DNA of 64,000 nt from a virus (IMGVR_UViG_3300045988_139474:64001-128000); one strand, 5' to 3'. Numbered from the stretch's first letter, positions 30,811 to 58,606 are shown. A program made the numbers and translations. Notes: a model not told the origin generated them from the sequence alone.

Positions 30811-30948
30811 GATATATAATACCTGAGGTTGATATTGTATCACATCTATGACATTGAAATCGTATATTTCGTGACTAACTTCTTATTTTCGCAAGGGAAT
30901 TTTTAGCCAAAATCCTGTATTTATGTACGGAATCCCAATAGTTACAAG
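30811..30948 (+). repeat. conserved ~145-nt non-coding element, copy A
   Basis: GATATATAATACC..ATTGTATCACATCTATGACATTGAAATCG..TTTCGTG..GAATTTTTAGCCAAAATCCTGTATTTATGTACGGAATCC. Confidence 0.85.
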
Positions 30949-31196
30949 ATTCAGCATTCAGCTTCTGTATCCCTGTCAACAGATTTCACCAGTGTTGATT
31001 GATTTCGCCTTTTAGCTTTCTATCCTCTGCTTGACACTCACCCAGACGGTCGGATTTCAGTCAGTCATTACTCATGCTTCAGCAGGGTTGAGTAGGATTC
31101 ATGATTGTTACCCCTTCTTCTGCTGACTCAGGCTACAGGCCGTCTAGTTTCATTGCTTCAGCAGTGTTGATAAAGACTGATTCTGTTCCATCTCTA

Positions 31197-31219
31197 GCTT
31201 GCTACGCTCACACGCAAGC
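31197..31219 (+). other. conserved hairpin H2 (GCTTGC, CA-rich loop, GCAAGC)
   Basis: Same flanks as H1 (TCTCTAGC...CAGAGGGTTT). Confidence 0.55.
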
Positions 31220-31358
31220 AGAGGGTTTCTTATCTCATGTTTCAGCATCATGATTCTCAAATTTCACGATTTCATTCTCATGGCTGATTGAGGATTGAGA
31301 GTGAATGACTGATTCCTGTTCAACAGCAGATATTAAGTCGGTATCGTTTTCTAATTTA

Positions 31359-31375
31359 ATATATATATATATATA
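31359..31375. repeat. (AT)8 dinucleotide microsatellite at the AT-rich box of copy B
   Basis: ATATATATATATATATA; the other copies have only 2-3 AT units here. Confidence 0.9.
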
Positions 31376-31505
31376 ACCTGTAGTTTGTTATTGTATCACA
31401 TCTATGACATTGAAATCGTTTATTTCGTGGATAACTTCCTAATCCGCCAAAAGAATTTTTAGCCAAAATCCTGTATTTATGTTCCGATTCCTGTACCCGC
31501 CAAGA
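31359..31505 (+). repeat. conserved ~145-nt non-coding element, copy B
   Basis: Aligns with copies A and C-F; about 230 nt upstream of the first plus-strand gene. Confidence 0.85.
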
Positions 31506-31733
31506 CCAGCATAAAAATATCGAAAAATCTTTCCCAATGTTGACTGCCTAAAGACGGTATCCCCTCTGTAAGCGCGGCAAGGCCAATTAACGTAATTTTT
31601 TGGTAACACCCTAATATCTATTGATGTATCGCCCTACACGATTTCGCAGAGCGTCGCTGCTAAGTCGTTGATTCTTCACGGGAATGATACAAATGGCCGT
31701 CAGTATCGGCACTATTTACAGGAAGAACTGAAA

Positions 31734-32183
31734 ATGACCAATCAGGTAATAAGTCTAAATTCCAGTTCATTGCCAGCTACCTTGTCTGATATCGACAAGC
31801 ATTTTGATATCGACCAGCTTCAGGTACACCGTATTGCAGCACAGCTGTTGTTGACTAAATTAGCCAACAGGGAAGCTGTACGGCTCGAAAAGCTCGTCAA
31901 TTTCAGAGATGCTATTGAAGAGCAGCTATTTGATGAAGACCGCATCGACAAGTTGACTCAGGAAGAGTTGATTGCTTTGCACCAGTTGATATCAAGTAGT
32001 GAGAGTCAGGCATACGGCCAAATTCAGAAAGTTAGCAAAGATGTGAACCTCGAAGAAGTGAAAGTCCATATCAAGATTCTGTCACAGTCAATGAACGATT
32101 CCGATAATCCAAACCTAGTGGACAACTCAGAAGCCGCAGCTGTAGCACAACGATTGCTGTCGCAAGTGGAAAGTAAGAAGTAG
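31734..32183 (+). CDS. hypothetical protein, possible small terminase subunit
   Basis: The ATG at 31734 (MTNQVISL...) follows GGAAGAA. 149 aa, helical/coiled-coil character, located two genes upstream of the large terminase. Confidence 0.35.
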   Translation: MTNQVISLNSSSLPATLSDIDKHFDIDQLQVHRIAAQLLLTKLANREAVRLEKLVNFRDAIEEQLFDEDRIDKLTQEELIALHQLISSSESQAYGQIQKVSKDVNLEEVKVHIKILSQSMNDSDNPNLVDNSEAAAVAQRLLSQVESKK

Positions 32184-32199
32184 TCCAGAAAGAAACATC

Positions 32200-32430
32200 A
32201 TGACCCCGATTAAAAGACAAGCGTGTAATTTGACTGTTGGAAAAGCCGTAACCCTGCCTTCAGGCCGCAGGGCTATCGTGCTTGAGATTCAGACAGAAAG
32301 CATTTCATTCTGCTATGCTGATGAGGCTGAGCTGTTCTCATTTGAGCTATCCCGAAACAAGTGCATTGAACTGTTCGGCAATACCCCCGAATATCGTGAC
32401 TACTGGACGCCAGCCAATCAAAGAATCTAG
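32200..32430 (+). CDS. hypothetical protein
   Basis: 76-aa ORF between the candidate TerS and TerL. Confidence 0.5.
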   Translation: MTPIKRQACNLTVGKAVTLPSGRRAIVLEIQTESISFCYADEAELFSFELSRNKCIELFGNTPEYRDYWTPANQRI

Positions 32431-32447
32431 GCCGAAAGGACTGACTC

Positions 32448-34250
32448 ATGAGCCAATCAAGCGAGATTGTAGCATTAGATAACAAGGTGCTATTTGAGAT
32501 TGCCAAGAAAGCAGGCTTTAAAGAGGAAGTCCCAACGATTGAGCAATTTATTGATGACCCTTACTATCTTGGCAAAGTGTTGGGTGACGGATTGTATCCT
32601 ATTTGGCGAGAAGCAGCCAAGAAGCTGTACCCCAACCCTTACCATTCACCATATGATGAAGTCATTCTATCGGGTGCTATCGGTTTGGGTAAATCGACTA
32701 TGGCACTGCTCATCACTTTCTATGACCTTTGCCGAGTCATGTGCTTGGAAGACCCGCATAAGCATTATGACCTAATTTCCTCAACAGTCATCACATTCCC
32801 AATGATGAATGCAACCAAGTCCCTTGCGTCGAAGGTGCTCTGGTCGCAATTCGTGGATTGGGTAGAAGCAAGCCCATTCTTCAAACACCGTGTTGATACC
32901 CGCAAGGGTGCTAAGACCTTCTTCAAAGGCAACATTGATGTTTCGACAGGCTCACGCGGCAGTGACTACTTAGGTCAAGCAACCATCGGTGCAATCTTTT
33001 CGGAGATTAACGACATGACGGTTGTAGCTGGCCAAGCAGAGGACAACCTTGACACAATCTCCACTCGTAGGGATTCCCGATTTGGCGGTAAAGGTAAGGA
33101 AATTCTAGGACACATCATCCTTGATTCCTCTAACAAGGGCAATCGCTCATTCATTGATGCGCGCCTTGAGGAAAAGGAAAAGAAAGGCTCAACAGGACAT
33201 ATCGTCTTCAGCTTCTCACACTGGGAAGCAAAATGGCACTTGGGAGGATACTCAGGCAAATTCTTCCAAGTGTACGCAGGCGATGAGTTTATTGACCCTT
33301 TCATCATTGATGATTCCAATTCCGACATGCTTCCAAACTTGAAGCCTAATCGTATTGTCGATGTCCCTGTTGAGCATAGGGAACAGTTTGAATTCAACAT
33401 CATCAAATCATTACGTGACTTGGCTGGTGTTTCAACTTTCGGCACGGCTTCCTTTATCTCATCCAATGAGGTTCTCAATCGCACGTTCATTCGGCCTAAT
33501 CCTGTTACCAAGGATTTGATAGTGCTAGACTTCTTCAACGACCAGTCATTGCGGGATTACATCGACATCGGGTTGTTGAAGGCGTTATGCGACAAGCCCC
33601 GATTCATCCATATTGACTTAGGCTTGACTACTGACTCAACAGGTATTGCTTGCTCATACATTGACAGGTACGAAGAGGTGAAAGCTTATGACCCTGTCAA
33701 GGGCACTCAGACGGTAGTTGTTGAGCCAGTATTCGTCAATGAATGGCTGATGGAGATACGGAGCATACCAGGACAGGAAGTCCCAATCCACAAAATCAAG
33801 AAATTCATTCTTGATGCAAGGGCTGAGGGCTATCCAATTGCTTGCGTTTCAACAGACGGCTTCCAATCAACCAACCTGCGGCAGGATTTACTGTATGCTG
33901 GTTTTGAAGTGAAGCTGATTTCAGTTGACCGAACCAAAGACCCTTACTATCATTTGCGCTCAGCGATTCTCGAAGGCCATGCAACAGCTGTCGCCTCAGA
34001 AAAGCTCAAGCGTGAAATCAGGGAATTGGAAGAGCATGATGACAAGTTTGACCACCCACCACCTCCAGCAGGCTCGAAAGACTTGTCTGACGCATTATGC
34101 GGTTCAATCTGGTCAGCCAAAGAGAACATGCAGCTAGCAGACAAGACGAAAGTGACCAAGCAACAGGCTGATACATTGCTCAAAGTGTTGGAAAAATCCG
34201 CTCCGAAAGAACAGGCATTCAAAGCTAAATTGATGGGCGGTTACAATTAG
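32448..34250 (+). CDS. terL: terminase large subunit
   Basis: 600 aa. Walker A GAIGLGKST, then IGAIFSEIND, and C-terminal RNaseH-like nuclease acidic residues (FIHIDLGLTTDSTG, VSTDGFQS). Confidence 0.8.
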   Translation: MSQSSEIVALDNKVLFEIAKKAGFKEEVPTIEQFIDDPYYLGKVLGDGLYPIWREAAKKLYPNPYHSPYDEVILSGAIGLGKSTMALLITFYDLCRVMCLEDPHKHYDLISSTVITFPMMNATKSLASKVLWSQFVDWVEASPFFKHRVDTRKGAKTFFKGNIDVSTGSRGSDYLGQATIGAIFSEINDMTVVAGQAEDNLDTISTRRDSRFGGKGKEILGHIILDSSNKGNRSFIDARLEEKEKKGSTGHIVFSFSHWEAKWHLGGYSGKFFQVYAGDEFIDPFIIDDSNSDMLPNLKPNRIVDVPVEHREQFEFNIIKSLRDLAGVSTFGTASFISSNEVLNRTFIRPNPVTKDLIVLDFFNDQSLRDYIDIGLLKALCDKPRFIHIDLGLTTDSTGIACSYIDRYEEVKAYDPVKGTQTVVVEPVFVNEWLMEIRSIPGQEVPIHKIKKFILDARAEGYPIACVSTDGFQSTNLRQDLLYAGFEVKLISVDRTKDPYYHLRSAILEGHATAVASEKLKREIRELEEHDDKFDHPPPPAGSKDLSDALCGSIWSAKENMQLADKTKVTKQQADTLLKVLEKSAPKEQAFKAKLMGGYN

Positions 34251-34328
34251 CTCAAAATCAGCTACCTCACCAATTTCAGGTCAGGTATTGCTTGTTGAGA
34301 ACAGGGCGTTATCAGCTGGAATTTACCA

Positions 34329-34350
34329 TCGCTGGGGGATATACCAGCGA
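34329..34350 (+). terminator. hairpin downstream of terL (terminator candidate)
   Basis: TCGCTGG, 8-nt loop, CCAGCGA, followed by GTTATTT. The T-tract is weak. Confidence 0.3.
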
Positions 34351-34560
34351 GTTATTTCAGTCATCAGAATCCTTGTTTTTGATTGATTTTAAGATTTCAG
34401 TCTCATGGCTGTTAAATCCCTTGTTTTCAGTCTTCAGGCCTCCTGATTTCTTGATTCTTGCTTTCGGGATTCTATCCTGACTGCTTGATTCTTCTCTTCG
34501 GGATTCCGTGAGGGCTGTTTTCAAGGATTCCAGTTTCATGGATTGTTAGTTTTCTTTATT

Positions 34561-34702
34561 TAATATATAGTATAACTTGTGTTGTGTATATTGTATCACA
34601 TCTATGACATTGGAATTGGATATTTCGTGGATAAGTTATTATTTTCGCAAGGGAATTTTTAGCCAAAATCTTGGACTTATGTTCGAGATTCTGTCTAGGC
34701 CA
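34561..34702 (+). repeat. conserved ~145-nt non-coding element, copy C
   Basis: TAATATATAGTATAACTTGTG..ATTGTATCACATCTATGACATTGGAATTGG..GAATTTTTAGCCAAAATC.. Confidence 0.85.
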
Positions 34703-34791
34703 GGATTCAGATTTCAACTCTTGTATCGCAGCCTCAAGTTTCATCAGTCAATGATTGATTTCAGGCTTCCAGCAGTCTGTTTTCAACTCTA

Positions 34792-34816
34792 GCTTGCTCA
34801 CACTCACAACGCAAGC
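34792..34816 (+). other. conserved hairpin H3 (GCTTGC, CA-rich loop, GCAAGC)
   Basis: Followed by AGACGGTTTCTTGTTTTG. Confidence 0.55.
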
Positions 34817-34958
34817 AGACGGTTTCTTGTTTTGATTTCAGGCTTCAGGCCGTCTGATTTCAAGGATTCCATGCTCATGGCTGATCGATAAGGATGAATG
34901 ACTGCTCTCAAGTCTCAGGATTGATAGAAATGAAAGCAGGGTTGTTCTTTTTCGTCTA

Positions 34959-35103
34959 TTAGTAATACTCTTGTGTGGTGTGTATATTGTGTATCACATC
35001 TATGAGTTTGGAATTGGCTATTTCGCGGATAAGCTTCTGATTCTCCAGCACTATTTTTCGCCAAAATCCTGTCTTTATGTTCGGAATCCTGTTCCCTACA
35101 AGA
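34959..35103 (+). repeat. conserved ~145-nt non-coding element, copy D
   Basis: Ends about 40 nt upstream of the portal start codon. Confidence 0.85.
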
Positions 35104-35144
35104 TTCATCTTCCATTAACCTGACATCTGCAAGGAATAAGCCCT

Positions 35145-36836
35145 ATGCACTTCAATGCCCGTGTGGACTCAGATGTAAGCGGCATCTTGTCCGCTACTAT
35201 GAACAGCATTATCAATCCCAAAGGCCATCTTGTGCATAACTTCAGCGTGCAGGATACTAGGGCTGCAAGGGATTTGAACTCAAAGCTGACTGCGTTTGCT
35301 ACTACTCGCATTCAGTATTACAAGACACTCCGTCAATTCCGCCGTAATTGGGTGACTGAAGGCGTGTATGATACTATCAATAATGACGTGCTGTTGGATA
35401 ACACCTCAGACGATACTGTTTCAGTCGAAGTAATAGGCGATGATGCCTTGACTCAAGAGGCCAATGACCTGTTTCGCAAACTGAAGATAGTTGAAATCTT
35501 ACACTCCATCATTGATGACCTGCTTCATTACGGTTCATACGCCCTCCGACCGATTGCCTACAAGGGTGTTGGTGTGGTTGACTTGGTTGACGATTATGAA
35601 CCGCATCAAGTCATTGCTTTGACCGATAGCAAAAACAATCCAGTCATGTTCTTCATCTCAGATGATTATTTGTCTAGCGATTTCAGTCAAGCTGATGCTG
35701 CTGGTACTTATGCTTATGTACCTCAGAGCAAGAAGCCTGTATCTCAGCGTTATCACTCAATTGATGAGTTGGTTTATTTCGGCCTTGACTTGAGCTTCAC
35801 CAAAATCCATATCGAAGAGGATTGGACACAAGCTATCCGCCAAGCTGCCCCGTTGTCGGCTTTCCGCGCTACTCTGCCGAAAACCTTTAAGCTGCGTGCC
35901 AGCCGTTCCTTTATCTTCAACAATCTCGACAAGCTTCAGGACATCTTGCTGATGGACAAGCTTAACACCTACCGCTCCATTGGCGACACGTTGACTCCTA
36001 ACGTGTTGGGTGTTCCGTTGCCGGACAACTATGACTCGCAACAATCTACTGAAGTGACTAAACACTATGATGCTCTGTTGAATAACAACATCGACCAAAT
36101 GACCGACTTCCTTGACCCTGAAACAATGTTCAGGGAATTAGCGAGAATTCGTGTTGTCCCGATAGTGGGTGACCGCTCGCAACCCGTCAAGTTAGAAACA
36201 AAAGAAAATGAGAGAGTTGAAGACATCGAATCGAAGAATCAGGCCTTGCGCAATTTCCTAGATTCGATAGGCGTGCCTGCAGCCGTCTTTTTCGGCGAAG
36301 GCGAGCATAAGGAAAGCTTGAAAAACTCAATCCGTTACGCCAAAAAAGTCAAGAGAATTCAGAAGAATATTTCACGCGCATTAACTCGCTTATTGATTAT
36401 CCACTTTCAAAACCGTTATCCTGAGCTTTCGGGTAAACTGAATGAGGGTGATATCAGAGTTACACTGCGCAACAATACCAACCTTGATGAGCTTGAAGAC
36501 TTGGAGTCACAAGACTTGACGCTATCCTCTATCAATTCAGCATTGGAGATGTTTGAAACTATCCGACCGCTGACGGAAGGTGAGGACAGCGAGTATAAGA
36601 TTGACGACAACATGATTCTGCAAGTAATCAAAGATAGGCTGGGCACCTCAGGCTCGATATTTGCACGCGCTTTGACTAAGCTCGAAGATGAGTCAATCAC
36701 GCTTGAGACTTCTGAAATCTCACCATCGAAGGATACACCTGGTGCAAACTATAAAGCAATTAAGAGGGCTATTGGAATCTCAGAAGGTCAGAAGCCTCCG
36801 AGAAAGCGGTGGTTCAGTCGCTTGTTTAACTCGTAG
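35145..36836 (+). CDS. portal protein (by position and size)
   Basis: 563-aa ORF between the terminase and the protease/scaffold and capsid genes. No motif recognised by eye. Confidence 0.55.
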   Translation: MHFNARVDSDVSGILSATMNSIINPKGHLVHNFSVQDTRAARDLNSKLTAFATTRIQYYKTLRQFRRNWVTEGVYDTINNDVLLDNTSDDTVSVEVIGDDALTQEANDLFRKLKIVEILHSIIDDLLHYGSYALRPIAYKGVGVVDLVDDYEPHQVIALTDSKNNPVMFFISDDYLSSDFSQADAAGTYAYVPQSKKPVSQRYHSIDELVYFGLDLSFTKIHIEEDWTQAIRQAAPLSAFRATLPKTFKLRASRSFIFNNLDKLQDILLMDKLNTYRSIGDTLTPNVLGVPLPDNYDSQQSTEVTKHYDALLNNNIDQMTDFLDPETMFRELARIRVVPIVGDRSQPVKLETKENERVEDIESKNQALRNFLDSIGVPAAVFFGEGEHKESLKNSIRYAKKVKRIQKNISRALTRLLIIHFQNRYPELSGKLNEGDIRVTLRNNTNLDELEDLESQDLTLSSINSALEMFETIRPLTEGEDSEYKIDDNMILQVIKDRLGTSGSIFARALTKLEDESITLETSEISPSKDTPGANYKAIKRAIGISEGQKPPRKRWFSRLFNS

Positions 36837-37052
36837 CTATGCAGACAACAAACAAGCAACCTATACCGTCACCAATATCTCTTCTGAGTATCAAAAACGC
36901 AGAATCCGAGAGACCTTGAGGGAGACTTGCGGCCAATGCTCAATCCGTTCAATAGACGGCGGAATCGAATTCACCGTGCCGTTGAAAGTGAAATTGGGCG
37001 AGTTGGCTCAGGCCTTGCAGAATCTTGGACATGCCCTTGAACGGAAGCATAA

Positions 37053-38618
37053 ATGACACCCAATACATTGCAAAGCATTTGGGAGAGCAAAACGGCTTAC
37101 ACAGTCAAAGAAACTGGGCCAGAAAGCGTTGTTGACGGCGTTAACATTCTGGCTCGTGTGTCTGGCCCAACTTTTTTCCCCGAAACAACAAGCAGAAATG
37201 GCGTGTATTACACGCTTGAAGCTTGGCAAAATGCCTTGAGTGACCCAGAACTTCAACAACGGTTAGATAGCCGTCTGGTTCTGGGCACTTTCGGTCATGA
37301 TATTGAAATCACTGATGAAGAGGTGCGCAAAGGCTTGTTTTCTCATATCACAACCAAACTCTGGATTGAGGGCGGTGTAGGATATGCGGAACACCTAGTG
37401 TTAAACACTGAGCCTGGCCGTAACTTAAACACTCTACTGCGCGCTGGAGCGCGAATCAGTACATCAACCAAAGCCAACGGTTTCTTGGCTGAATCTCAAA
37501 CAGCTGACGGTTACAGTATGGTTGAGCCAGAGGGCTTTACGCTCGAAAGGATTGACTTTGTACTTGACCCTGGCTATCTTGAGGCCAAGCCTGAACTGCT
37601 GGAATCTTTTTCATCCAAAGGTAAACAAAAAATGGACAAAACTCGCACTCCGATTGAAATCATGGAAGCACATGTGAGCGACTTGCGCGCACGTGGTGAG
37701 CTTTCCGACAAACGCGCAACTGAGCTGCAAGAAGCCCTGAGCGCATCTCGTGTAGAAGTAGCTGAAGCTAAAGCAGCAATGAAGCTGTATGAAGCATTCG
37801 GCACTCCTGTTGAAATTCACGAAAAGCTGAAAAAACTCAGCGTGTACGAATCTATTGACGATGACCCAGAAGCCCTGGCCGACACCGTTGAAGCCGCAAC
37901 CGAAACTATTGAAGACCTGACCGACAAGCTGGATGCAGCTACTCAGGAACTGGAACACACTCAAGAAGCTTTGGGTGACGAAACTCCTGAAACCTACAAA
38001 GCCCTGTTGGCTGAAGCTGACGCTGCTGTCGAACAACTGGCTGCCTTCAAAGAAGTCGCTGACACCCCTGAACAAGTCAAAGAGTTGATGGACGCTGCTG
38101 CCCAAGCAGAAGAAAAACTGACTCAATACCAAGAGTTGGGCACCGTTGAAGAACTCGAAGAGTTGATTGACACCGCTGAGAAAGTACAAGAGCAATTGGA
38201 AGGCGAAGAAGTCGCTGATATTGCTGACGAAGTAGGCGTTGAGCCTGAAATCGTTGAATCTCTGCGTCGCAAAGGCATGAGCCTGAAAGAAGCCCGCAAA
38301 CTGCTGGTTTCCATGAAAGAAAGCTTTGGCGAAGTAGAAGGCCTACCAGAAGATGATGACCCTTACCTCGACAACGAAGAAGAGCATCAAGACGGCGAAG
38401 ATGGCAACAACGAAGATGAAGACCGCTTCAGCGTTCAAGAATCCGTTGCACGCTTCAAACGTGGTCGTGGCCGCAAAGCCTTCACTGAGGCTAAAGTAAA
38501 AGCTAACAAGAAATCTCCTGCTGCTAAAGGTAAAACCACATTGGCAGAAGCTTTGATTTCACGTAACCGTGCTGGCAACCGCAATGCTCGCACTAATGTT
38601 CGCAGCACCCGCAAGTAA
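37053..38618 (+). CDS. prohead protease / scaffolding fusion candidate
   Basis: 521 aa. The N-terminal ~190 aa has an HK97-protease-like layout (GTFGHD...ISTSTKANGF). The remainder is strongly acidic and predicted helical (E/A/L-rich) with a basic C-terminal tail. Lies directly upstream of the capsid gene. Confidence 0.45.
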   Translation: MTPNTLQSIWESKTAYTVKETGPESVVDGVNILARVSGPTFFPETTSRNGVYYTLEAWQNALSDPELQQRLDSRLVLGTFGHDIEITDEEVRKGLFSHITTKLWIEGGVGYAEHLVLNTEPGRNLNTLLRAGARISTSTKANGFLAESQTADGYSMVEPEGFTLERIDFVLDPGYLEAKPELLESFSSKGKQKMDKTRTPIEIMEAHVSDLRARGELSDKRATELQEALSASRVEVAEAKAAMKLYEAFGTPVEIHEKLKKLSVYESIDDDPEALADTVEAATETIEDLTDKLDAATQELEHTQEALGDETPETYKALLAEADAAVEQLAAFKEVADTPEQVKELMDAAAQAEEKLTQYQELGTVEELEELIDTAEKVQEQLEGEEVADIADEVGVEPEIVESLRRKGMSLKEARKLLVSMKESFGEVEGLPEDDDPYLDNEEEHQDGEDGNNEDEDRFSVQESVARFKRGRGRKAFTEAKVKANKKSPAAKGKTTLAEALISRNRAGNRNARTNVRSTRK

Positions 38619-38661
38619 TCGCTTGCCTGCACCGAGTAATTTCTAATCAAGGACACACCCA

Positions 38662-40083: not shown

Positions 40084-40090
40084 TGTAAGC

Positions 40091-40132
40091 AGCCGTCTGG
40101 ACGAAGCCTCAAAAACTCCGTTCAGACGGCCT
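40091..40132 (+). terminator. inverted DUS pair hairpin after the capsid gene
   Basis: AGCCGTCTGGA ... TTCAGACGGCCT. The downstream arm (40121..40132) is a perfect AG-DUS on the minus strand. There is no T-tract. Confidence 0.5.
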
Positions 40133-40160
40133 AACTTAAAACTTGTGGGAGAGTGTAAAC

Positions 40161-44565: not shown

Positions 44566-44602
44566 GCCATTCGCAGAATTTGTCTGCGGCTAATCTCTTG
44601 AG

Positions 44603-44707
44603 AGGTTAGCACAACTGCTTACAACTATGTTAACCCAACCGACCTTTTGTCCCTTTTCATCGTGTTAATCAGTTTGTCTAGGCAGTTGTGCTAACCTTTT
44701 ATTTTTC
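44603..44707 (+). terminator. long-range 16-bp hairpin plus T-tract (terminator or structured RNA)
   Basis: AGGTTAGCACAACTGC (44603-44618) pairs perfectly with GCAGTTGTGCTAACCT (44682-44697). The loop is 63 nt and is followed by TTTTATTTTT. Confidence 0.5.
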
Positions 44708-50145: not shown

Positions 50146-50185
50146 AAACCCATTGACGCTCCAAGTGTTAATGGGTTTCTTTTTT
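50146..50185 (+). terminator. intrinsic terminator
   Basis: AAACCCATT, 15-nt loop, AATGGGTTT, followed by CTTTTTTG. Confidence 0.75.
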
Positions 50186-50206
50186 GTACACACTGAAGGA
50201 ACAGCC

Positions 50207-50614
50207 ATGTATAACCTGTTAATTCCATTACATGTAATAGTGTCACGGATTCCTGAGGGCTTAGCAGACAAGACCTTATCTGAAGATGATGACTGGTTTT
50301 TCAGTTACATGTCTCAGACAGAGGGTAACGAAGATTTGCTTGACACTCTAGATGTTCTTGTACGGCTCGAAAAGATACACATCAAGACTTTGACCCGCAA
50401 GAAGTTCATCTCCATCTGGTTCAATGAGTATCCGCGTTCATTCATCGCTGATATTCTGACCACTAGTGATAACCCTCAATCAGTCATTGCTAAACGGTTG
50501 AACGATACCGATGAGCTGTTACAAGTCTATCAGTTAACAGGCGATGAGATGGCTGAAGAGTATAACCTGCATTCAGCATACTCAATCAAGACGAAGAAGT
50601 GTTACAGATTCTAA
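50207..50614 (+). CDS. hypothetical protein
   Basis: The ATG at 50207 (MYNLLIPLHV...) follows GAAGGAA. The track ORF starts upstream inside the terminator. Confidence 0.5.
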   Translation: MYNLLIPLHVIVSRIPEGLADKTLSEDDDWFFSYMSQTEGNEDLLDTLDVLVRLEKIHIKTLTRKKFISIWFNEYPRSFIADILTTSDNPQSVIAKRLNDTDELLQVYQLTGDEMAEEYNLHSAYSIKTKKCYRF

Positions 50615-50616
50615 GT

Positions 50617-50760
50617 TATTAATATATAACTTGTGGTGTGTTATATATTGTATCACATCTATGAGTTTGGAATTGGACTTTTCGTGGATAATCCTTTGAT
50701 TCACCAAAAGAATTTTTAGCCAAAATCCTGTATTTATGTTCGGAATCCTGTAGCCGCCAG
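50617..50760 (+). repeat. conserved ~145-nt non-coding element, copy E (solo)
   Basis: TTATTAATATATAACTTGTGG..ATTGTATCACATCTATGAGTTTGGAATTGG..GAATTTTTAGCCAAAATCCTGTATTTATGTTCGGAATCCTGTAGCC. Ends 25 nt before the 50786 start. Confidence 0.85.
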
Positions 50761-50785
50761 TATCCTTACCAACGAACGGAAGCAT

Positions 50786-51331
50786 ATGAAAGTATTAACA
50801 CGCAGTAAGGTTGCCTCAGTTCAATGGGGTAGCCAGAATCAATGGAATGTATCATTCCCAAACAAGGGGGCTAACGAAAAAGTTGCCCCTCTTCCTAATC
50901 CTTTTGATGACTGGTTTCCCGCCACTGACGTTACCTTGAATGAAGTGTCCCTTGAAACTGCTACCTCAAGGCTGGGATTGTCTGAGTTCAAATTCCCGCA
51001 GTCATACTCTGCGCCTGATTTGACCTTAACAGTTGTGGATACAGAAGATGAAAAACTGTACCACTGGTACAAAGCTTGGGTGGACTACGTCAGGGGCGGT
51101 GACACCATGAAAACCGTGGATGAGTCTTACAAGCTAGTCCAGATTGAGAGTTACTCAAAAACAGGCTCAAGTAAAACAGGCCTTCCTCACTCGATTGAAA
51201 GCCGTTGGAAGAGTAACGGCATTCGCACTTACAAGATAGTGCCAACAGGCATTGTAAGCTGGTCACGCGGTTCATCTGCTGAGACGGTGAATATTGCATT
51301 AACATTTGACATAGTAGGTATTGTACGATGA
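50786..51331 (+). CDS. hypothetical tail protein (possibly tube-like or tube-initiator)
   Basis: 181 aa. The position and a loose resemblance to the tube-family layout are the only evidence. Confidence 0.35.
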   Translation: MKVLTRSKVASVQWGSQNQWNVSFPNKGANEKVAPLPNPFDDWFPATDVTLNEVSLETATSRLGLSEFKFPQSYSAPDLTLTVVDTEDEKLYHWYKAWVDYVRGGDTMKTVDESYKLVQIESYSKTGSSKTGLPHSIESRWKSNGIRTYKIVPTGIVSWSRGSSAETVNIALTFDIVGIVR

Positions 51332-52080: not shown

Positions 52081-52163
52081 CCCTGTGACTTTGCGTAGGA
52101 TGGATTGGTCGGAAGTCAATTACATGTGTGAACAATTATCCAAAGAATTAGAGGAATTGAACG

Positions 52164-55100: not shown

Positions 55101-55391
55101 GCAGGCAGGGCAAGAGTTACTCGACTGAGACACCCAAAAATGGCGTCCAGCGGTAAAGCAAGCAGTGGCGGTGGCGTTAGTGCGCCTCCTATGCTGAAAG
55201 CACCTGCTAAAGCTCCGAGTAATTCAGGCTCACCTAATCTGATTCAGTCGATGAATAAGCCGTCTGCGCCTGTCGGTATTGCAGCCAATCCGCCTCAAAA
55301 GCCTGCTACAGTGAATACAATCCTGTCGGCCTTTGCAGCGAAGCCTGATGATAACATCAAGTCCACATTGAATCTCGTGAATGTCTTGTAA
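52164..55391 (+). CDS. tape measure protein with lysozyme-like and CHAP/NlpC-P60-like C-terminal domains
   Basis: 1075 aa. Coiled-coil N-terminal half and a Gly-rich hydrophobic segment. AKYEGKVESANKDNKGWAYGKYQFNS is muramidase-like. GRCARHVF...PGDVEVW...DGHIAFFDG is a Cys-His peptidase signature. Confidence 0.75.
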   Translation: MAKLTRIVTHSAKTEQAAHEVRMLHEETRANANLYADFMSKEQKKLVAAFEKQLDKRLTAKQWSQKDSDQLQAMQEQLVEIFEKIKTENADKTISVVKMIETYLEMRARKDLSSLQRKHIEDDLDKLLRQLGLENIDRDDYDRSAADRSREAHNRSIQLKRATELADKITATAEETQGLKDHLYELKVGYDEAIKSDGFKNLKRDAVDRLLKGTGLGELAEMFDLGGKAKSGWGKLKSGLGKGWDKLKDSFDEKSQEQLQQQKEIADEQELKETERHEHLISTTVSESNRTQQLLSESIQIQRNMLNEQERTTSLIEQEQNKQDLVPLKKSKDKSEDDEESEGGGIIEKLFDVIGGKKGKLAKTIFKGGKGLLRLGGKGLGMIATSLFPKAAPIAGRIASRFLPVTGKIGGGLLSKAGGLAAGMAGRLGVNALKAVPGLGLAATAAMAAYDGYKGWDSEKAKALYGDDSFKSKAKSSLAHIGSGLTFGLADPKQVSDFFGKMMDYSPWSLLQKGISKVFDFKDSDTFKALKDGFKEKLGVVKDFLFSPIETIGKGFNKLMDTLGSIPIVGDFFEGLRSPKMKQLATSVWKMSPIGRVFDTLTKIMKKIASYFNIDLPSGQQLKDGMSNAFQTAISSVGEAFGVDKGLGSVSAKYEGKVESANKDNKGWAYGKYQFNSATGGLDDFFKHNPKYAAQFKGLTPGTEEFNNKWREIAANDREGFEAAQHNTVVKTRYNPAAEYAGKLGYKLDNRGVQEMIFSGSVQHGGINKLLKQVASTPGFANMTPEQQIQVFYAARKQYVAGNVDAKTNAGLQSRYDSEVQTALQYARGEQSTNIAGAAANSVSTAASGLAMKVSGIIRNNATVNTKHGGTKAATKSIGRCARHVFNSLAAAGFEVGNADINKASGIQSAKDAVPPLKRAGFEVVGYPSADNSNAGAMPGDVEVWSGVPGHPDGHIAFFDGRNWISDFVQKGRIVASEYAGRARVTRLRHPKMASSGKASSGGGVSAPPMLKAPAKAPSNSGSPNLIQSMNKPSAPVGIAANPPQKPATVNTILSAFAAKPDDNIKSTLNLVNVL
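54622..54633 (-). repeat. perfect AG-type DNA uptake sequence
   Basis: The plus strand reads TTCAGACGGCCT, inside the tape measure CDS. Confidence 0.8.
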
Positions 55392-55403
55392 GGGAGGAAG
55401 CGC

Positions 55404-56261
55404 ATGAGCTTGTTTTATGAAGAGATGTTGAAGAATCCCAACCTGTTAGTCACTCTAGCTTTCAGCGGTTCTGATTCCGTCCCTGCGTTTACAGTAAGCA
55501 GCCTGATTTCTGATGATTTCGGCGTTAACACTCAAACGCAATGGAATCATAATGACGCGTCAGTCAGCGATAACGGCTTGCAGACGGTTGCGAATGTGAT
55601 AGCAGGCATGACGGGTGATGCTAAACGCTCAATGAGCACGCTGGTCGGTACTTTGTCTGACTGGTCGGGCAATAGCAAACCTAGCTTCACAATTCCGTTG
55701 GTGCTACCAAAATACAGCAAATCCGCACCTGGCCTTGATATTGCTTCAACAATGCTGGCTATGTGTGCGCCGTCCTACAATAAGGGCGTGTTGGTAGCAC
55801 CTGGTGGGTACTATCGGGGCAATGCTATCACTCAAGTGTACGGCCAGATTCAAGACGCAATCAATGGCGGTATAGAACTGGCTAATGAAGCACTTGAAAG
55901 CGTTGGTAGCACTAGCGCGATTCCTACTGTTGGGGCAGGCTCAGACATGGGCTATGCAGACATCTTATCCCAACTAAAAGGCACCTGGTCAATCCAGATT
56001 GGTAATTGGTTCAGAGCAAGTCATCTGGTGCTGGATACCGTGAATTTCTCAGGCTCAAAAGAGGTAGTGACTGGCGGTGTACCTTTGATGGTAAACGTTT
56101 CCGCCAGCTTCACTACTGCGATTCAGCCGTCTGCTAGTATCGTCAAAGGCTGGTTCATTGCTGATAATGATACGTCTGTTTTCAAAGATACAGACATTGC
56201 TATTGCTACTCAAGGTACAACACCGTCAGCTGACGGTAACACTACACCTGCGGAGGCCTAA
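55404..56261 (+). CDS. hypothetical tail/baseplate protein
   Basis: 285-aa ORF directly after the tape measure gene. Confidence 0.55.
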   Translation: MSLFYEEMLKNPNLLVTLAFSGSDSVPAFTVSSLISDDFGVNTQTQWNHNDASVSDNGLQTVANVIAGMTGDAKRSMSTLVGTLSDWSGNSKPSFTIPLVLPKYSKSAPGLDIASTMLAMCAPSYNKGVLVAPGGYYRGNAITQVYGQIQDAINGGIELANEALESVGSTSAIPTVGAGSDMGYADILSQLKGTWSIQIGNWFRASHLVLDTVNFSGSKEVVTGGVPLMVNVSASFTTAIQPSASIVKGWFIADNDTSVFKDTDIAIATQGTTPSADGNTTPAEA

Positions 56262-56650
56262 TGTTTAAATTATCAGCTCAAGAGTTGGCGTATCGTTACG
56301 ACATCTCCAATTTTATCCGCCGAACGGAATCAACATCATACTTTGATATTGTCGATTCAACCTTTCTGAGCGACTTGAAGTCATTGAAGGGTATGCAGAC
56401 ATACACGGTCAAGTTTGAAGCTAACAGACCTGACCTGTTGTCTGAGGCGATATACGGCGCAGGCATTTCTCAACTATGGTGGATTATCATGACTGTTAAT
56501 GGCTTGAGATTACCGACTGAAATCAAGACCAACATGACGGTTCAGTATCCAACATTAGACCAGTTGGAAAACCTGTATTTTAAACTTAGCGCACGGATGT
56601 CAGCCAACAAGGTTGATTTCCGTGGCTCAAACATTGAATTGTTGGATTAA
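56261..56650 (+). CDS. LysM-like tail protein (P2 gpX-like position)
   Basis: 129 aa. YTVKFEANRPDLLSEAIYG...IIMTVNGLRLPTEIKTNMTVQYP has a LysM-like pattern and precedes the gpD-like gene. Confidence 0.4.
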   Translation: MFKLSAQELAYRYDISNFIRRTESTSYFDIVDSTFLSDLKSLKGMQTYTVKFEANRPDLLSEAIYGAGISQLWWIIMTVNGLRLPTEIKTNMTVQYPTLDQLENLYFKLSARMSANKVDFRGSNIELLD

Positions 56651-56652
56651 TC

Positions 56653-57780
56653 ATGATAGGGATACAAGGTCAATACCTTTTTGACGTAAAAATCGGCAGT
56701 TTGTCAGGATTCTTAACAGAGGCTGACCTTGTTGTCTTTAAGCTTATCGAAGAGGCCGGCAACAAATTGCCTTTGTTTGAGATGATTTTCAGAGTCAACG
56801 ACCCTGCAATCTACCGTGTTATGAACCAAGGCAATTTGCTGAAAGTTTCTTTCGGCGTTCACCAACTGAATATGCATGACCTACAATTGATGATTGTTGA
56901 AAGAGATAGGATTTCTGAATCTGCTAATTCAACATACGTCAGACTAGTCGGAACATTGGCTGCTATTCAGTATTCGACCGCTAATACAACATACAGCAAA
57001 ACAACCACGACTAAAGAGGCGATTCAAGAATTGGCCTCCAAATTCTTTCAATATGAGTCCAATATTGATAAGGGCAACGACCGTATGGGCTGGGTATCTA
57101 ACAGCAAGACAGTCAGGTCATTTATCAACAAGCTATGGTTGCATAGTGATGTTGGAAACGATATTCCAATGATTGGTATTACGTCAACAGGCAAGTTTAG
57201 ACATCTTGCCCTTTTAAAGCATGTAAACCAATCGAATAAATGGACGCTAACGACTAACACACCAAACCCTGGTGAGATACCTCTCAGCCAGCTTCCTAGC
57301 GTTTTTAGCAACGCAGCAGCTGTAAACCTGCTTGGCGGGTATTCTCGCAGCGTTATCGTCAACGACTTAGGCAATGCTAAGACGAAACGGATTACACCGC
57401 CTGAATTAGGCAAAGGCCTTCTTTCAAACTCAGAATCGTTGGATACTATCAATGCTGGTACACGCCTCAAGTCTGTATCTTACGTCAACGACAACGTGTT
57501 TCCTGAGTATCATCAACGCAGGGAATTCAATTCAAAACACTTGTTAATGTTAGATTCCCTCAATGCTAAATGCTATGTTGAGGGCGTATTCTGCGGAGTA
57601 CAGGTGCTAGATGTCGTCATGCTGAGGGATTCAAGCTATTCATTAGGCCAATCTGTTGAAGATACCTCAGGCCTATGGATAGTCAAGAAAGTTGCTCGCA
57701 TTATCCAAGACAAGAAGTTTCATACAGTCATCACCCTGACTAGAGACTCAATCAACAAACTCACATTGCTGAAAGCTTAG
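56653..57780 (+). CDS. baseplate hub protein (P2 gpD / Mu gp44-like, by position and size)
   Basis: 375 aa, located between the LysM-like gene and the spike gene. Confidence 0.5.
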   Translation: MIGIQGQYLFDVKIGSLSGFLTEADLVVFKLIEEAGNKLPLFEMIFRVNDPAIYRVMNQGNLLKVSFGVHQLNMHDLQLMIVERDRISESANSTYVRLVGTLAAIQYSTANTTYSKTTTTKEAIQELASKFFQYESNIDKGNDRMGWVSNSKTVRSFINKLWLHSDVGNDIPMIGITSTGKFRHLALLKHVNQSNKWTLTTNTPNPGEIPLSQLPSVFSNAAAVNLLGGYSRSVIVNDLGNAKTKRITPPELGKGLLSNSESLDTINAGTRLKSVSYVNDNVFPEYHQRREFNSKHLLMLDSLNAKCYVEGVFCGVQVLDVVMLRDSSYSLGQSVEDTSGLWIVKKVARIIQDKKFHTVITLTRDSINKLTLLKA

Positions 57781-57791
57781 GAGGACAACTA

Positions 57792-58454
57792 ATGCTACCA
57801 ATTGATGAATGGTTCAGCGAAACTAAGCCGAATGAAAGCTATCAGCGCGGTATCGTGTTAGACAATAACGACCCTGAGATGAAGAAACGGTTGAAAGTGC
57901 GAATCCCTGGCTTCATGGAAGGCGACAAAGAGACCCTGCCATGGTGCGTCCCTATCGGTGACGCTTTCTTAGGGGATTCTGCTCAATCAGCTGAAGTGGC
58001 TGTTCCTGCTATCGGCTCAGAAGTGGTAGTGTCCCTGCCCACTACTGATGCCTCATTCCCTTTCTATATCGGCTCATGGCAATCCAAGCCTGTTCCTGCT
58101 GAGTTTCAGACCAATTATCCGAACAGACATGGCAGGAAGGATAACTCAGGCACTTATTGGTATAATGACCAGACGACAGGGGAATTCAAATTCAAACATT
58201 CCTCAGGCTTTGAGTTCACGATTAAGGCGAATGGCGATTTCACCCTCAAGACGGCTGGAAACGGTATCGTCAAGGCTGGTCAGCTGTTAGACTTGATTGC
58301 TGCTACTATGGTTTCGGCTCAAACGCCAATGCTGAAAGCCTCGCAAGAGATTATGGATGAAGTGAGAACCATGTCTGCTGACCGTGAGATTTACAACACT
58401 CACATTCATCAAGGTTACCATGGCCCAACCAGTCAGCCTTTGCAGCCTAAGTAA
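57792..58454 (+). CDS. baseplate central spike (P2 gpV / Mu gp45-like)
   Basis: 220 aa. OB-fold start RGIVLDNNDPEMKKRLKVRIPGF...LPWCVP and apex motif NTHIHQGYHG. Confidence 0.8.
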   Translation: MLPIDEWFSETKPNESYQRGIVLDNNDPEMKKRLKVRIPGFMEGDKETLPWCVPIGDAFLGDSAQSAEVAVPAIGSEVVVSLPTTDASFPFYIGSWQSKPVPAEFQTNYPNRHGRKDNSGTYWYNDQTTGEFKFKHSSGFEFTIKANGDFTLKTAGNGIVKAGQLLDLIAATMVSAQTPMLKASQEIMDEVRTMSADREIYNTHIHQGYHGPTSQPLQPK

Positions 58455-58461
58455 TTGCTTT

Positions 58462-58606
58462 CTTGGCCTAGTCAGAATCTCGAACATAAAGACAGGATTT
58501 TGGCTAAAAATTCTTCTGCTGAAACAATTGCTTACCAACGAAATAGCCAATTCCAATGTCATAGATGTGATACAATATCAACACTACAGATATTATATTA
58601 CTAATA
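58462..58606 (-). repeat. conserved ~145-nt non-coding element, copy F (inverted orientation)
   Basis: The reverse complement aligns with copies A-E: TAATATAATATCTGTAG..ATTGTATCACATCTATGACATTGGAATTGGCTATTTCG..GAATTTTTAGCCAAAATCCTGTCTTTATGTTCGAGATTC. Confidence 0.85.

What the first reader, a model, noticed from the sequence alone, without database searches (positions are those of the whole stretch)
30811..58606. Six-copy conserved ~145-nt non-coding element heading the late gene blocks
Copies lie at 30811-30948, 31359-31505, 34561-34702, 34959-35103, 50617-50760 and, inverted, 58462-58606. All share the same architecture. An AT-rich box (TATATAAC/TATAATAYC) comes first, then (A/T)TTGTATCACATCTATGA(C/G)(A/T)TTG(G/A)AAT(T/C)G, then TTTCG(T/C)GGATAA. 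A more variable ~20-nt segment follows, then GAATTTTTAGCCAAAATCCTGT(A/C)TTTATGTTCGGAATCCTGT. No reading frame is conserved: different copies are open in different frames, so conservation is at nucleotide level. Copies B, D and E end 25-230 nt upstream of the packaging, head and tail gene blocks. Three hypotheses fit. (1) It is a T4-style AT-rich late promoter followed by a shared structured leader, for example a cis-acting put-like antitermination RNA, which would make sense because the late operons contain internal hairpin terminators. (2) It is a small RNA gene family. (3) It is a mobile regulatory cassette of the kind described in T4-type phages. I do not recognise the sequence as any known RNA family or as a Neisseria Correia element.
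Basis: seen in the sequence. Interest (0 to 1): 0.8.

Follow-up and report, generated by a model that had tools for sequence, protein, structure and literature searches.

The report
Repeated non-coding cassette in Neisseria phage
A roughly 145-base non-coding sequence occurs six times in this stretch of an uncultured Neisseria phage (15 or more times per genome in relatives); it is most likely a phage-specific promoter plus shared untranslated leader for the virion genes, not a folded RNA or a jumping element, and it has not been described before.

Summary
There are exactly six copies: 30807-30951, 31357-31506, 34564-34707, 34959-35105 and 50611-50764 on +, and 58460-58612 on -.

The window is a Neisseria myovirus of the RP13-like group with hypermodified thymidine. 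Relatives in IMG/VR and metagenomes carry 15 or more copies per genome. No bacterial genome or GenBank phage carries any.

Across 56 non-redundant copies (median identity 73%), ATCACATCTATGA and CAAAATC-N-TG-NNN-TTATGT never vary.

- The core has no conserved RNA fold and no coding signal.
- It has no terminal inverted repeats and matches no Rfam family.
- It is the only repeated intergenic motif in the late cluster.
- It abuts the ribosome-binding sites of the portal, tail-tube and giant-fibre genes.

It is also the minimal form of a larger unit of about 330-550 nt. That unit has an upstream covarying hairpin, a CTCATGGCT box, an AT box and the core. It forms gene-less tandem arrays of up to five. 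Three of nine loci, including copy F, point against the flanking genes. Loci are fixed among relatives, and copy number per locus changes by unequal recombination.

Best reading (about 0.45): a late-class promoter with a conserved unstructured leader, recognised by an unidentified phage factor. The put-like structured RNA idea is not supported. New variant of a known kind; interest about 0.5.

The parts
30807..30951 (+). Copy A: AT box about 30804-30822, invariant 13-mer 30839-30851, block 3 30900-30914. First of two tandem copies in the divergent early/late intergenic region.
31357..31506 (+). Copy B: AT box about 31352-31377, 13-mer 31395-31407. Last copy before the small-terminase/terminase block.
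34564..34707 (+). Copy C: AT box about 34556-34576, 13-mer 34595-34607. First of two tandem copies between terminase and portal. Several relatives have a single C/D hybrid here.
34959..35105 (+). Copy D: AT box about 34956-34968, 13-mer 34993-35005. Ends 40 nt before the portal-block ATG at 35145.
50611..50764 (+). Copy E, a minimal form (AT box 50615-50630 plus core; 13-mer 50652-50664). It fills the whole gap between the stop at 50614 and the tail-tube ATG at 50786.
58460..58612 (-). Copy F, a minimal form in inverted orientation (13-mer 58559-58571 on the - strand; AT box about 58589-58609). Its 3' end lies 6 nt from the stop of the baseplate-spike gene (58454). Its AT box lies about 20 nt from the ATG of the baseplate-wedge gene (58631). 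The inversion is conserved in relatives.
30639..30669 (+). Upstream hairpin module of the unit that holds copy A (TCTAGCCTGCT, CA-rich loop, AGCAGGCAGA).
31193..31222 (+). Upstream hairpin module of the unit that holds copy B.
34788..34819 (+). Upstream hairpin module of the unit that holds copy D.
30724..30732 (+). CTCATGGCT box about 80 nt upstream of the AT box of A. The same box is at 31277-31285 (before B), 34402-34410 (before C) and 34874-34882 (before D).
30300..31667 (+). ORF-free region holding units A and B, between the leftward early promoter (30253-30299, - strand) and the first late gene.
34251..35144 (+). ORF-free region holding units C and D. It begins with a terminator-like hairpin at 34329-34350 just after the terminase gene.

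Best explanation
The element is a cis-acting transcription cassette of this phage clade. A TATAAT-like, partly palindromic AT box that lacks a -35 element serves as a phage-class (probably late) promoter. The roughly 130 nt after it is a shared, unstructured initial transcribed region or leader. Its invariant motifs (ATCACATCTATGA; CAAAATC-N-TG-NNN-TTATGT) are read sequence-specifically by a phage or host factor, either as DNA next to the polymerase or as linear RNA.

In front of the terminase, portal-head-sheath, tube-baseplate and giant-fibre blocks, it would start or restart late transcription after the terminators inside the late cluster. The full unit adds an upstream hairpin and a CTCATGGCT box, which may insulate or regulate it.

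Tandem arrays and hybrid copies arise by unequal homologous recombination between copies. The minority of copies that point against their neighbours would then make antisense or convergent transcripts, or act only as protein-binding sites.

Shown here: the copies, the invariant motifs, the positions, the orientations, the lack of fold and of coding signal, the recombination, and the restriction to this clade. Inferred: that transcription starts at the AT box, which factor reads the motifs, and the timing.
For: 1. Site-specific selection. In 56 non-redundant copies with median pairwise identity 73%, the 13-mer and the block-3 motif are invariant in 56 of 56. Orthologous E is 87% identical between genomes whose flanking third-codon positions are 64-82% identical, and all its changes lie outside the conserved blocks.
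2. Position. This is the only repeated intergenic motif in the + strand late cluster. The two other motif families (D3, sigma-70-like; and D2) occur only on the - strand of the early cluster. A copy in gene orientation precedes the terminase block, the portal block (40 nt to the ATG), the tube block (22 nt) and, in relatives, the 3484-aa fibre gene. That leaves no room for another promoter.
3. Every copy has TATAAT-like hexamers in the AT box but no consistent -35 element, as expected for a factor-dependent promoter.
4. The spacing between the AT box and the core varies by several bases. That fits promoter plus leader better than one rigid DNA site.
5. Internal terminators at 40090-40133, about 44590-44705 and 50146-50185 make re-initiation useful.
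6. Six of nine loci are co-oriented with the flanking genes.
7. The upstream hairpin is always on the same strand as the element (49 of 49). It keeps its pairing through CG/UA exchange with a single UG intermediate, which fits sense-strand RNA.
8. The element is not coding, not a known RNA and not a host element.
Against: - There are no transcript data, so no start site has been shown.
- No phage sigma factor, gp55-like protein or activator was found among about 70 proteins scanned. About half of the roughly 140-kb genome was not available.
- No sigma-70 promoter is conserved at one position in all copies.
- Three of nine loci, including F, are anti-oriented. They sit between a terminator and the D2-type promoter of the next gene, so a promoter there would only make antisense RNA.
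- Arrays of three to five copies end at a convergent terminator with no downstream gene.
- One co-oriented array lies upstream of an early-type promoter and a MazG-like gene in the rII cluster, so 'late' is an assumption.
- A conserved leader of 130 nt without structure has no close experimental precedent that I could check here.
Confidence: 0.45

Rival explanations
1. A DNA-level protein-binding landmark that does not depend on orientation. The invariant 13-mer and block 3 would be asymmetric binding sites for a phage DNA-binding protein placed in inter-operon spacers. Candidates are the HU/IHF-like protein at 23357-23707, a repressor acting as a transcription roadblock in the manner of stoperators, or an adaptor of the actin-like segregation protein encoded by relatives. 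The element would then organise, insulate or position the hypermodified genome rather than start transcription.
For: Copies occur in both orientations, always in intergenic spacers. Invariant non-palindromic motifs lie amid 27% divergence. There is no RNA fold. The AT box is partly palindromic (TATTA-N6-7-TAATA). Two motifs (TATTTCGTG and AATTTTTAGC) are shared with the early-cluster D2 sites in the opposite orientation relative to genes. The phage encodes an HU-family protein, and relatives encode a ParM/Alp-like actin about 1.5 kb from the terminal array.
Against: Orientation is biased towards the flanking genes (6 of 9 loci). The spacing between the AT box and the core is variable. The conserved region spans about 90-130 bp, far more than one binding site. 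Known centromeres and stoperators are short iterons of 10-20 bp, not units of 145-400 bp. The late operons would be left without any recognisable promoter.
Confidence: 0.2
2. A family of non-coding RNA genes. Each unit in the gene-less arrays would be its own transcription unit, making an RNA of a few hundred nucleotides whose conserved 5' 130 nt acts in trans, for example as a sponge or guide for an RNA-binding protein. The copies in front of genes would be the same RNA fused to mRNAs.
For: Arrays of three to five complete units have no ORFs and no downstream gene. The sense strand is T-rich and the modules keep a constant order. A covarying hairpin is linked in cis and on the same strand. 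Block 3 (AAAAUCCUGUAUUUAUGU) loosely recalls the linear RNA sites of phage translational repressors. That resemblance is from memory only and was not tested.
Against: The conserved core has no conserved secondary structure. No defined 3' end exists: the hairpin lies upstream of the next AT box, is not followed by a U-tract, and is absent after the last unit of an array. There is no Rfam match. The regions between the core and the hairpin are highly variable in length (0-200 nt).
Confidence: 0.15
3. Selfish or neutral repeated DNA. The cassette would have spread and be kept uniform by the phage's own recombination (gene conversion and unequal crossing-over), in the way proposed for PeSL cassettes or intergenic mosaic repeats, with at most incidental regulatory effects.
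For: Copy number per locus varies from 1 to 5 among close relatives, and clear hybrid copies exist. Variable segments are shared between copies at different loci, for example F and an array member. Both orientations occur. Assemblies break at the copies.
Against: The loci are the same in all relatives at 83-98% identity, so there is no sign of recent transposition. There are no terminal inverted repeats. The sharp alternation of invariant and variable blocks is not what homogenisation alone produces. The element is absent from the syntenic E. coli relative IME392 and from all bacterial genomes, so nothing points to a wider mobile family.
Confidence: 0.1
4. A structured cis-acting antiterminator RNA (put-like), a ribozyme or a riboswitch in the leader.
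For: It sits in the leader position before operons that contain internal terminators. In the E lineage alone, two orthologous alleles differ by changes that keep a local hairpin.
Against: The consensus fold is -1.37 kcal/mol with no compensatory pairs. Nothing is found on the other strand. Z-scores are not below shuffles. The E-type hairpin is paired in only 61% of cells against 61.8% in shuffles across the family. Rfam is empty.
Confidence: 0.04

Closest known systems
PeSL (promoter-early stem-loop) regulatory cassettes of T4-type phages RB49/phi1 (Arbiol et al. 2010, PMC2839356)
   Same: Both are composite intergenic cassettes present in many copies, combining an AT-rich region, a promoter-like part and a stem-loop. 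In both, recombination between copies creates deletions, duplications and hybrid copies.
   Different: PeSLs are short, carry a clear strong sigma-70 -35/-10 pair, have a G/C-tract terminator stem-loop, flank ORFans in hyperplastic regions and act early. Here the conserved core is 135-145 nt and the unit is 330-550 nt. No sigma-70 consensus is conserved. The hairpin has a CA-rich loop and no U-tract. Arrays carry no ORFs. The best-placed copies head essential late operons.
Class-specific late promoters of large lytic phages (T4 TATAAATA with gp55/gp33/gp45; Mu C-dependent and P2 Ogr-dependent late promoters) - from general knowledge
   Same: One conserved sequence is repeated in front of each late operon, there is an AT-rich -10-like element without a -35, and a phage factor is presumably required.
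   Different: Those conserved parts are 8-40 bp and lie upstream of the start site. Here about 130 nt downstream of the AT box is conserved. TATAAATA is absent from the window. No gp55-like or activator gene was found. Some copies are antisense or have no gene.
HK022 putL/putR antiterminator RNAs - from general knowledge
   Same: A cis-acting element in the leader of operons that contain terminators.
   Different: put RNAs act through two conserved stem-loops. This family has no conserved fold.
Neisserial Correia elements and other MITE-like or mosaic intergenic repeats (NIME, BOX, ERIC) - from general knowledge
   Same: Multi-copy intergenic repeats of 100-150 bp in both orientations, with a modular or mosaic build, in a Neisseria-associated genome.
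   Different: There are no terminal inverted repeats. The element is absent from all 185,579 representative bacterial genomes, including Neisseria. The loci are fixed among relatives.
Stoperators of cluster A mycobacteriophages (asymmetric repressor sites dispersed in intergenic gaps) - from general knowledge
   Same: An asymmetric invariant motif of 13-16 bp dispersed through intergenic spaces, mostly in one orientation relative to transcription.
   Different: Stoperators are isolated 13-14-bp sites in temperate phages with a known repressor. Here the motif is embedded in a conserved block of about 135 nt in a lytic-type phage, and no repressor has been identified.

Membership tests
HK022 put-type / structured antiterminator RNA | Conserved stem-loops supported by covariation in the transcribed leader | tested here: not met
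   RNAalifold gives -1.37 kcal/mol with 0 compensatory pairs and nothing on the other strand. MFE z-scores run from -1.04 to +1.67. The candidate hairpin is 61.3% paired against 61.8% in shuffles.
HK022 put-type / structured antiterminator RNA | Read-through of downstream terminators depends on the element | not testable with these tools
   Needs reporter or in vitro transcription assays.
Known RNA families (Rfam 15) | Match to a covariance model | tested here: not met
   No hit at gathering score in the whole window. No relevant hit at E <= 1 in 30000-35300 or in the five-copy array of L043.
T4-type late promoter | TATAAATA consensus at -10 | tested here: not met
   TATAAATA occurs 0 times in the window. 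The AT boxes read TATAATA, TATATAA or TAATATA.
T4-type late promoter | Phage gp55-like sigma with gp33 and the sliding clamp | tested here: inconclusive
   No such family was found among the proteins scanned. About half of the genome was not available, and these proteins diverge quickly.
Sigma-70 promoter | -35 and -10 hexamers 16-18 nt apart, conserved at one position | tested here: not met
   A -10-like hexamer with a -35 of at least 4/6 is found at any one alignment column in at most 21 of 56 copies.
PeSL regulatory cassette | Strong sigma-70-like early promoter with an upstream AT-rich region | tested here: not met
   The AT-rich region is present, but there is no conserved -35/-10 pair. 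PeSL definition from PMC2839356.
PeSL regulatory cassette | Adjacent stable stem-loop acting as a terminator | tested here: inconclusive
   A covarying hairpin lies about 170-190 nt upstream of the AT box in full units. It has no U-tract and is missing from the minimal copies E and F.
PeSL regulatory cassette | Flanks ORFans, and recombination between copies shuffles them | tested here: not met
   Recombination between copies is seen, but the arrays hold no ORFs and the loci are fixed.
Correia / MITE-like element | Terminal inverted repeats | tested here: not met
   No inverted repeats span A, E or F. The only inverted pairs found in the window are between different copies.
Correia / MITE-like element | Present in host or other genomes, with insertion polymorphism | tested here: not met
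   The scan of 185,579 genomes gave only single hits, none in Neisseria, as expected by chance. The same nine loci occur in all relatives.
Protein-coding small gene | Conserved open frame, start signal and codon-position bias of substitutions | tested here: not met
   The best frame is open in 17 of 29 copies and has no ribosome-binding site. Entropy by codon phase is 0.65/0.64/0.76, permutation p = 0.67.
Type II partition centromere (parC-like) | Short tandem iterons next to a parM/parR operon, bound by the adaptor protein | tested here: inconclusive
   Relatives encode a ParM/Alp-like protein about 1.5 kb from the terminal array. However, the repeats are units of about 400 nt, dispersed over nine loci. 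No binding can be tested here.

The most novel reading that the evidence does not exclude
The cassette is not merely a promoter. It would be the recognition module of a so far unknown system by which phages with bulky hypermodified thymidine mark their own DNA or RNA. In this reading a dedicated phage factor reads the invariant 13-mer and block 3. The gene-less arrays are either genes for a new class of unstructured regulatory or decoy RNAs of about 300-400 nt, or nucleoprotein landmarks, for example attachment sites for the phage's actin-like filament or HU-like protein.
Probability: 0.2. Interest if true: 0.75.

Novelty: new variant of a known kind. Interest (0 to 1): 0.5.

Why it matters
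If the reading is right, this cassette is the handle for late transcription in a whole clade of uncultured Neisseria phages from the human mouth. Their DNA carries hypermodified thymidine, and how any RNA polymerase finds promoters on such DNA is largely unknown.

The invariant 13-mer gives a concrete bait for finding the factor, and a concrete site to mutate.

The family also has practical uses:
- It is a specific marker for this phage clade in metagenomes.
- It explains why assemblies of these genomes break.
- It shows recombination between regulatory repeats reshaping intergenic regions, much as in the PeSL model but with a much larger unit that carries no genes.

If it turns out to be an RNA or a DNA landmark instead, it would be a new kind of phage non-coding element.

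Tried and rejected
- **Structured RNA.** Rejected from RNAalifold on 27-29 copies on both strands, single-copy folding against shuffles, a hand-built hairpin in the variable segment, and Rfam at gathering and E <= 1 thresholds.
- **Coding.** Six-frame translation anchored on the 13-mer and a codon-phase entropy test both rejected it. A short ORF starting at the invariant ATG has no ribosome-binding site and ends at different places.
- **Host or mobile element.** Scans of bacterial genomes, GenBank phages and viral contigs with three different motifs found only the same narrow clade. There are no terminal inverted repeats.
- **Rho-utilisation-like tails.** There is no C-over-G skew.
- **Sigma-70 promoter at a fixed position.** Not found.
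- **T4 TATAAATA.** Absent.
- **A homologous element in the syntenic E. coli relative IME392.** Absent; that phage has only a 46-nt early-region repeat.
- **Search for a sigma factor, activator or phage RNA polymerase.** About 70 proteins from the window and related loci gave nothing. The giant 3484-aa protein downstream of one copy looked like a candidate virion RNA polymerase but has tail-fibre domains.
- **Resemblances recalled from memory.** These were an IHF core, half a parS site, the Ter core, T7/SP6 promoters and the RegA site. None was better than chance-level partial matches, and none is claimed.
- **Literature.** Searches on Neisseria lytic phages, IME392, RP13 and YerA41 gave the taxonomic context but nothing on such repeats.
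- **One script timed out** and was replaced.

Full report
**What is there.** The six copies are real. The repeat finder reports five direct copies of about 128 nt plus an inverted one. The six align with 68 invariant columns. A profile built from them finds exactly six places in the window, all at E <= 2.5e-37: 30807-30951, 31357-31506, 34564-34707, 34959-35105 and 50611-50764 on the + strand, and 58460-58612 on the - strand. The 16-mer TGTATCACATCTATGA is exact in all six, against 0.43 matches expected even with three mismatches allowed.

**The genome around it.** The window is a large myovirus-type phage.
- Genes on the - strand from about 1.4 to 30.1 kb are early or replication functions: ribonucleotide reductase, topoisomerase II, an SbcCD-like nuclease, helicases, RusA, and a thymidine-hypermodification set (5-hmdU DNA kinase, HMUD2, amino acid:DNA transferase).
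- Genes on the + strand from 31.7 kb onward are terminase, portal-head, sheath, tube, baseplate and fibres.
- The large terminase is 57-60% identical to those of Ralstonia phage RP13 and E. coli phages IME392 and EP_H11. That group was recently described as RP13-like phages with hypermodified thymidine (PMC12686479).
- Six exact Neisseria uptake sequences (GCCGTCTGAA) against 0.1 expected point to a Neisseria host.
- There is no near-identical GenBank phage.

**Relatives and distribution.** The invariant motifs retrieve only one narrow clade: five IMG/VR contigs and about ten metagenome contigs, 83-98% identical to the window where they overlap. One 141.8-kb contig (ODNI01000015.1) carries at least 15 copies. 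A scan of one genome from each of 185,579 bacterial and archaeal species gave only single hits, none in Neisseria, as expected by chance. GenBank phages give nothing. The syntenic E. coli relative IME392 has no such element. The family is therefore an invention of this phage clade.

**What it is not.**
- *Not coding.* The best frame, on the antisense strand, is open in only 17 of 29 copies and lacks a start signal. Substitutions show no codon periodicity.
- *Not a structured RNA.* RNAalifold on 27-29 diverse copies gives 0 to -1.4 kcal/mol with no compensatory pair on either strand. Each window copy folds no better than its dinucleotide shuffles, and each folds differently.
- *The E-locus hairpin is local only.* A hairpin in the variable segment looks conserved between two orthologous alleles of E. 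Across the family it is paired no more often than in shuffled controls.
- *No Rfam match,* even at E <= 1.
- *Not a MITE.* It has no terminal inverted repeats.
- *The flanking tails are not rut-like.* They show no C-over-G skew.

**What the conservation looks like.** I collected 73 full-length copies and reduced them to 56 that differ by more than 5%. Median pairwise identity in the 135-nt core is 73%. Even so, ATCACATCTATGA and CAAAATC-N-TG-NNN-TTATGT are invariant in 56 of 56. Conserved blocks alternate with a variable segment of about 20 nt that has a fixed length, and with an indel-rich spacer between the AT box and the core. Between the window and ODNI, flanking genes are 64-82% identical at third codon positions. 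Orthologous E is 87% identical, D 79% and F 74%. In E and D all changes lie outside the conserved blocks, and F has only a few inside them. This is selection on primary sequence, meaning recognition by a protein or a polymerase, on DNA or on unfolded RNA.

**The element is the core of a larger unit.** In arrays and in most single copies the homology extends upstream. The order of modules is:
1. a hairpin, TCTWGCYTGCT / CA-rich loop / AGCARGCAGA;
2. a box, GATTTCA-NN-CTCATGGCTG;
3. a GA-rich stretch;
4. the AT box;
5. the core;
6. often a CAAGTTTCATCAGTCA / CAAT..ATTG module.

Units are 320-555 nt, and one is 813 nt. The hairpin is always on the same strand as the nearest element (49 of 49). 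It keeps its pairing in 41 distinct sequences. One pair is CG in 20, UA in 20 and UG in 1, never unpaired, and two further pairs each show one double change. No shuffle out of 500 reaches the observed covariation. In the window the hairpins are at 30639-30669, 31193-31222 and 34788-34819, and the CTCATGGCT boxes are at 30724, 31277, 34402 and 34874. E and F are minimal versions, with only the AT box and core squeezed into short gaps.

**Where copies sit.** Nine loci recur in all relatives:
1. the divergent early/late region (A and B; one to three copies);
2. terminase to portal (C and D; one or two copies);
3. before the tube gene (E);
4. before the baseplate-wedge genes (F, inverted in the window, L009, L145, L270, L280 and L281);
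5. before a fibre-like gene of 3484-3525 aa (one or two copies);
6. a terminal array of three to five copies after the last + strand genes, running into a convergent terminator with no gene behind it;
7. a co-oriented array of four in the leftward cluster, upstream of an early-type promoter and a MazG-like gene;
8. and 9. two loci in the rIIA/rIIB cluster where one or two copies point against the genes.

In the anti-oriented loci, the 3' end of the element abuts the stop codon or terminator of the upstream operon. The next gene has its own D2-type promoter motif beyond the element.

Copy number changes by unequal recombination. Several relatives have a single C/D or A/B hybrid exactly where the window has two copies. 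Variable segments are shared between copies at different loci. I saw no gain of a new locus.

**Other intergenic motifs.** The early cluster has its own two families, found only on the - strand.
- D3 (AATGCGCTTTT..GTTCTTTGT, four copies) includes a good sigma-70 promoter, TTTACA-17-TATTGT, at 30253-30281.
- D2 (AAAAATTA-N3-TTGGT..ATAAYA, five or six copies) lies 40-45 nt before start codons.
- D2 shares TATTTCGTG and AATTTTTAGC with the late element, but in the opposite orientation relative to genes and with different spacing.

The late cluster has no D2 or D3 motif. Its only repeated intergenic sequence is the element.

**Most likely mechanism.** I favour a class-specific, probably late, promoter (the AT box) followed by a shared unstructured leader that a factor reads by its sequence.

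Arguments for:
- It is the only candidate promoter for the late operons.
- It lies directly against their ribosome-binding sites.
- It has a -10-like box without a -35, so it would need a factor.
- The spacing between the box and the core is loose.
- Orientation is biased towards the genes.
- Re-initiation would be useful after the three internal terminators.

Arguments against:
- There are no transcript data and no identified factor.
- Three of nine loci are antisense.
- The arrays have no genes.
- One array lies in an early-type context.

I give this reading 0.45. Rivals:
- an orientation-independent DNA-binding landmark, 0.2;
- an ncRNA gene family, 0.15;
- selfish or neutral recombination-driven repeats, 0.1;
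- a structured antiterminator RNA, about 0.04.

**Comparison with known systems.** The closest documented system is the PeSL cassette of T4-type phages (PMC2839356). It too is a multi-copy composite of AT-rich region, promoter and stem-loop, and its copies recombine. The present family fails the PeSL definition on three counts: the sigma-70 promoter, the terminator-type stem-loop, and the association with ORFans. It is also three to five times larger.
- It works like a late-promoter family but lacks the T4 consensus.
- It is not put-like.
- It is not a Correia element.

I rate it a new variant of a known kind (phage regulatory cassettes). There is a real chance, about 0.2, that the gene-less arrays and antisense copies hide something less ordinary.

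**Limits.** About half of the roughly 140-kb genome of the relatives was not available to me. All relatives are close, so covariation power comes from paralogues that also exchange segments. Every statement about transcription is inference from position and sequence.

Noticed in passing
window 11500-14697 (- strand): Thymidine-hypermodification genes: a 5-hmdU DNA kinase helical domain protein (11500-12501), HMUD2 (12494-13552) and an amino acid:DNA transferase (13549-14697). Together with the terminase relatives, these place the phage in the RP13/YerA41/SP-15-like group with bulky modified thymidine.
   Followed up: partly
window 23357-23707 (- strand): A 116-aa HU/IHF-family protein (Pfam Bac_DNA_binding, E = 7e-28) in a phage with hmU-derived DNA. 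This recalls SPO1 TF1 and makes it a candidate binder of the repeated elements.
   Followed up: no
window 6562-6831 (- strand): An 89-aa protein with a Tad2-like (Thoeris anti-defence 2) domain, E = 9e-24.
   Followed up: no
window 480, 29026, 40121, 44076, 48053, 54622; also 40090-40133: Six exact Neisseria DNA uptake sequences (0.1 expected). An inverted DUS-like pair forms the hairpin after the putative major capsid gene. Near-DUS strings (AGGCCGTCTGAT) recur in the non-coding arrays.
   Followed up: partly
window 9218-9247, 14719-14748, 23790-23819, 30260-30289 (- strand): Family D3: AATGCGCTTTT-N10-GTTCTTTGT followed by TATTAT or TATTGT. These are likely sigma-70-type early promoters. The one at 30253-30281 (TTTACA-17-TATTGT) heads the leftward early cluster.
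   Followed up: partly
window 1399-1446, 2329-2376, 11140-11187, 18287-18334, 23801-23848 (read on the - strand): Family D2: AAAAATTA-N3-TTGGT..ATAAYA, lying 40-45 nt before start codons and often just after a terminator hairpin. It is a second promoter-like class of the early cluster. It shares TATTTCGTG and AATTTTTAGC with the late element, but in the opposite orientation relative to genes.
   Followed up: partly
L043:2012-2962 (+); also L264:7019-7969, L282:854-1804, L263:9726-10676: Relatives encode a 316-aa actin-like protein (Pfam ALP_N, MreB-like_C and a weak ParM match; PHROG 'partition protein'). It lies about 1.5-1.8 kb from the terminal array of elements, and small ORFs around it could be an adaptor.
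   Followed up: no
L006:427-10881, L262:712-11289, L083:4757 onward, L050: A giant ORF of 3484-3525 aa directly downstream of an element. It carries tail-tip-fibre and ILEI domains, so it is a fibre or adhesin rather than a virion RNA polymerase.
   Followed up: partly
L043 about 6700-6800 and about 4640-4740 (- strand units starting at 7127 and 4959): Two array units share an insert of about 100 nt bounded by a long inverted repeat (..GCGAAAATTAGMCA ... TGTCTAATTTTCG..). It is a possible small palindromic insertion or long hairpin.
   Followed up: no
L035:2214-3650 and L108:6020-6889: Relatives carry an extra ORF (478 aa and 289 aa) between the 76-aa gene and the large terminase gene. The window has none, so this may be a homing-endonuclease-type insertion.
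   Followed up: no
window 1-1376 (- strand) and L276:4544-7957: The ORF that runs off the left end of the window is rIIA (643 aa in the relative), followed by rIIB. Together with topoisomerase II and the SbcCD-like nuclease, this gives the early cluster a T4-like flavour.
   Followed up: partly
window about 44590-44705 and 50146-50185: Two strong hairpin terminators lie inside the late cluster. The gene at 50208-50614 sits between the second terminator and copy E with no promoter of its own.
   Followed up: no
L006 start, L042 end, L009 start, L024 end: Several public contigs of this clade begin or end inside an element, or in the A/B non-coding region. The repeats evidently break short-read assemblies, so the 71-81-kb IMG/VR contigs are partial genomes.
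   Followed up: partly
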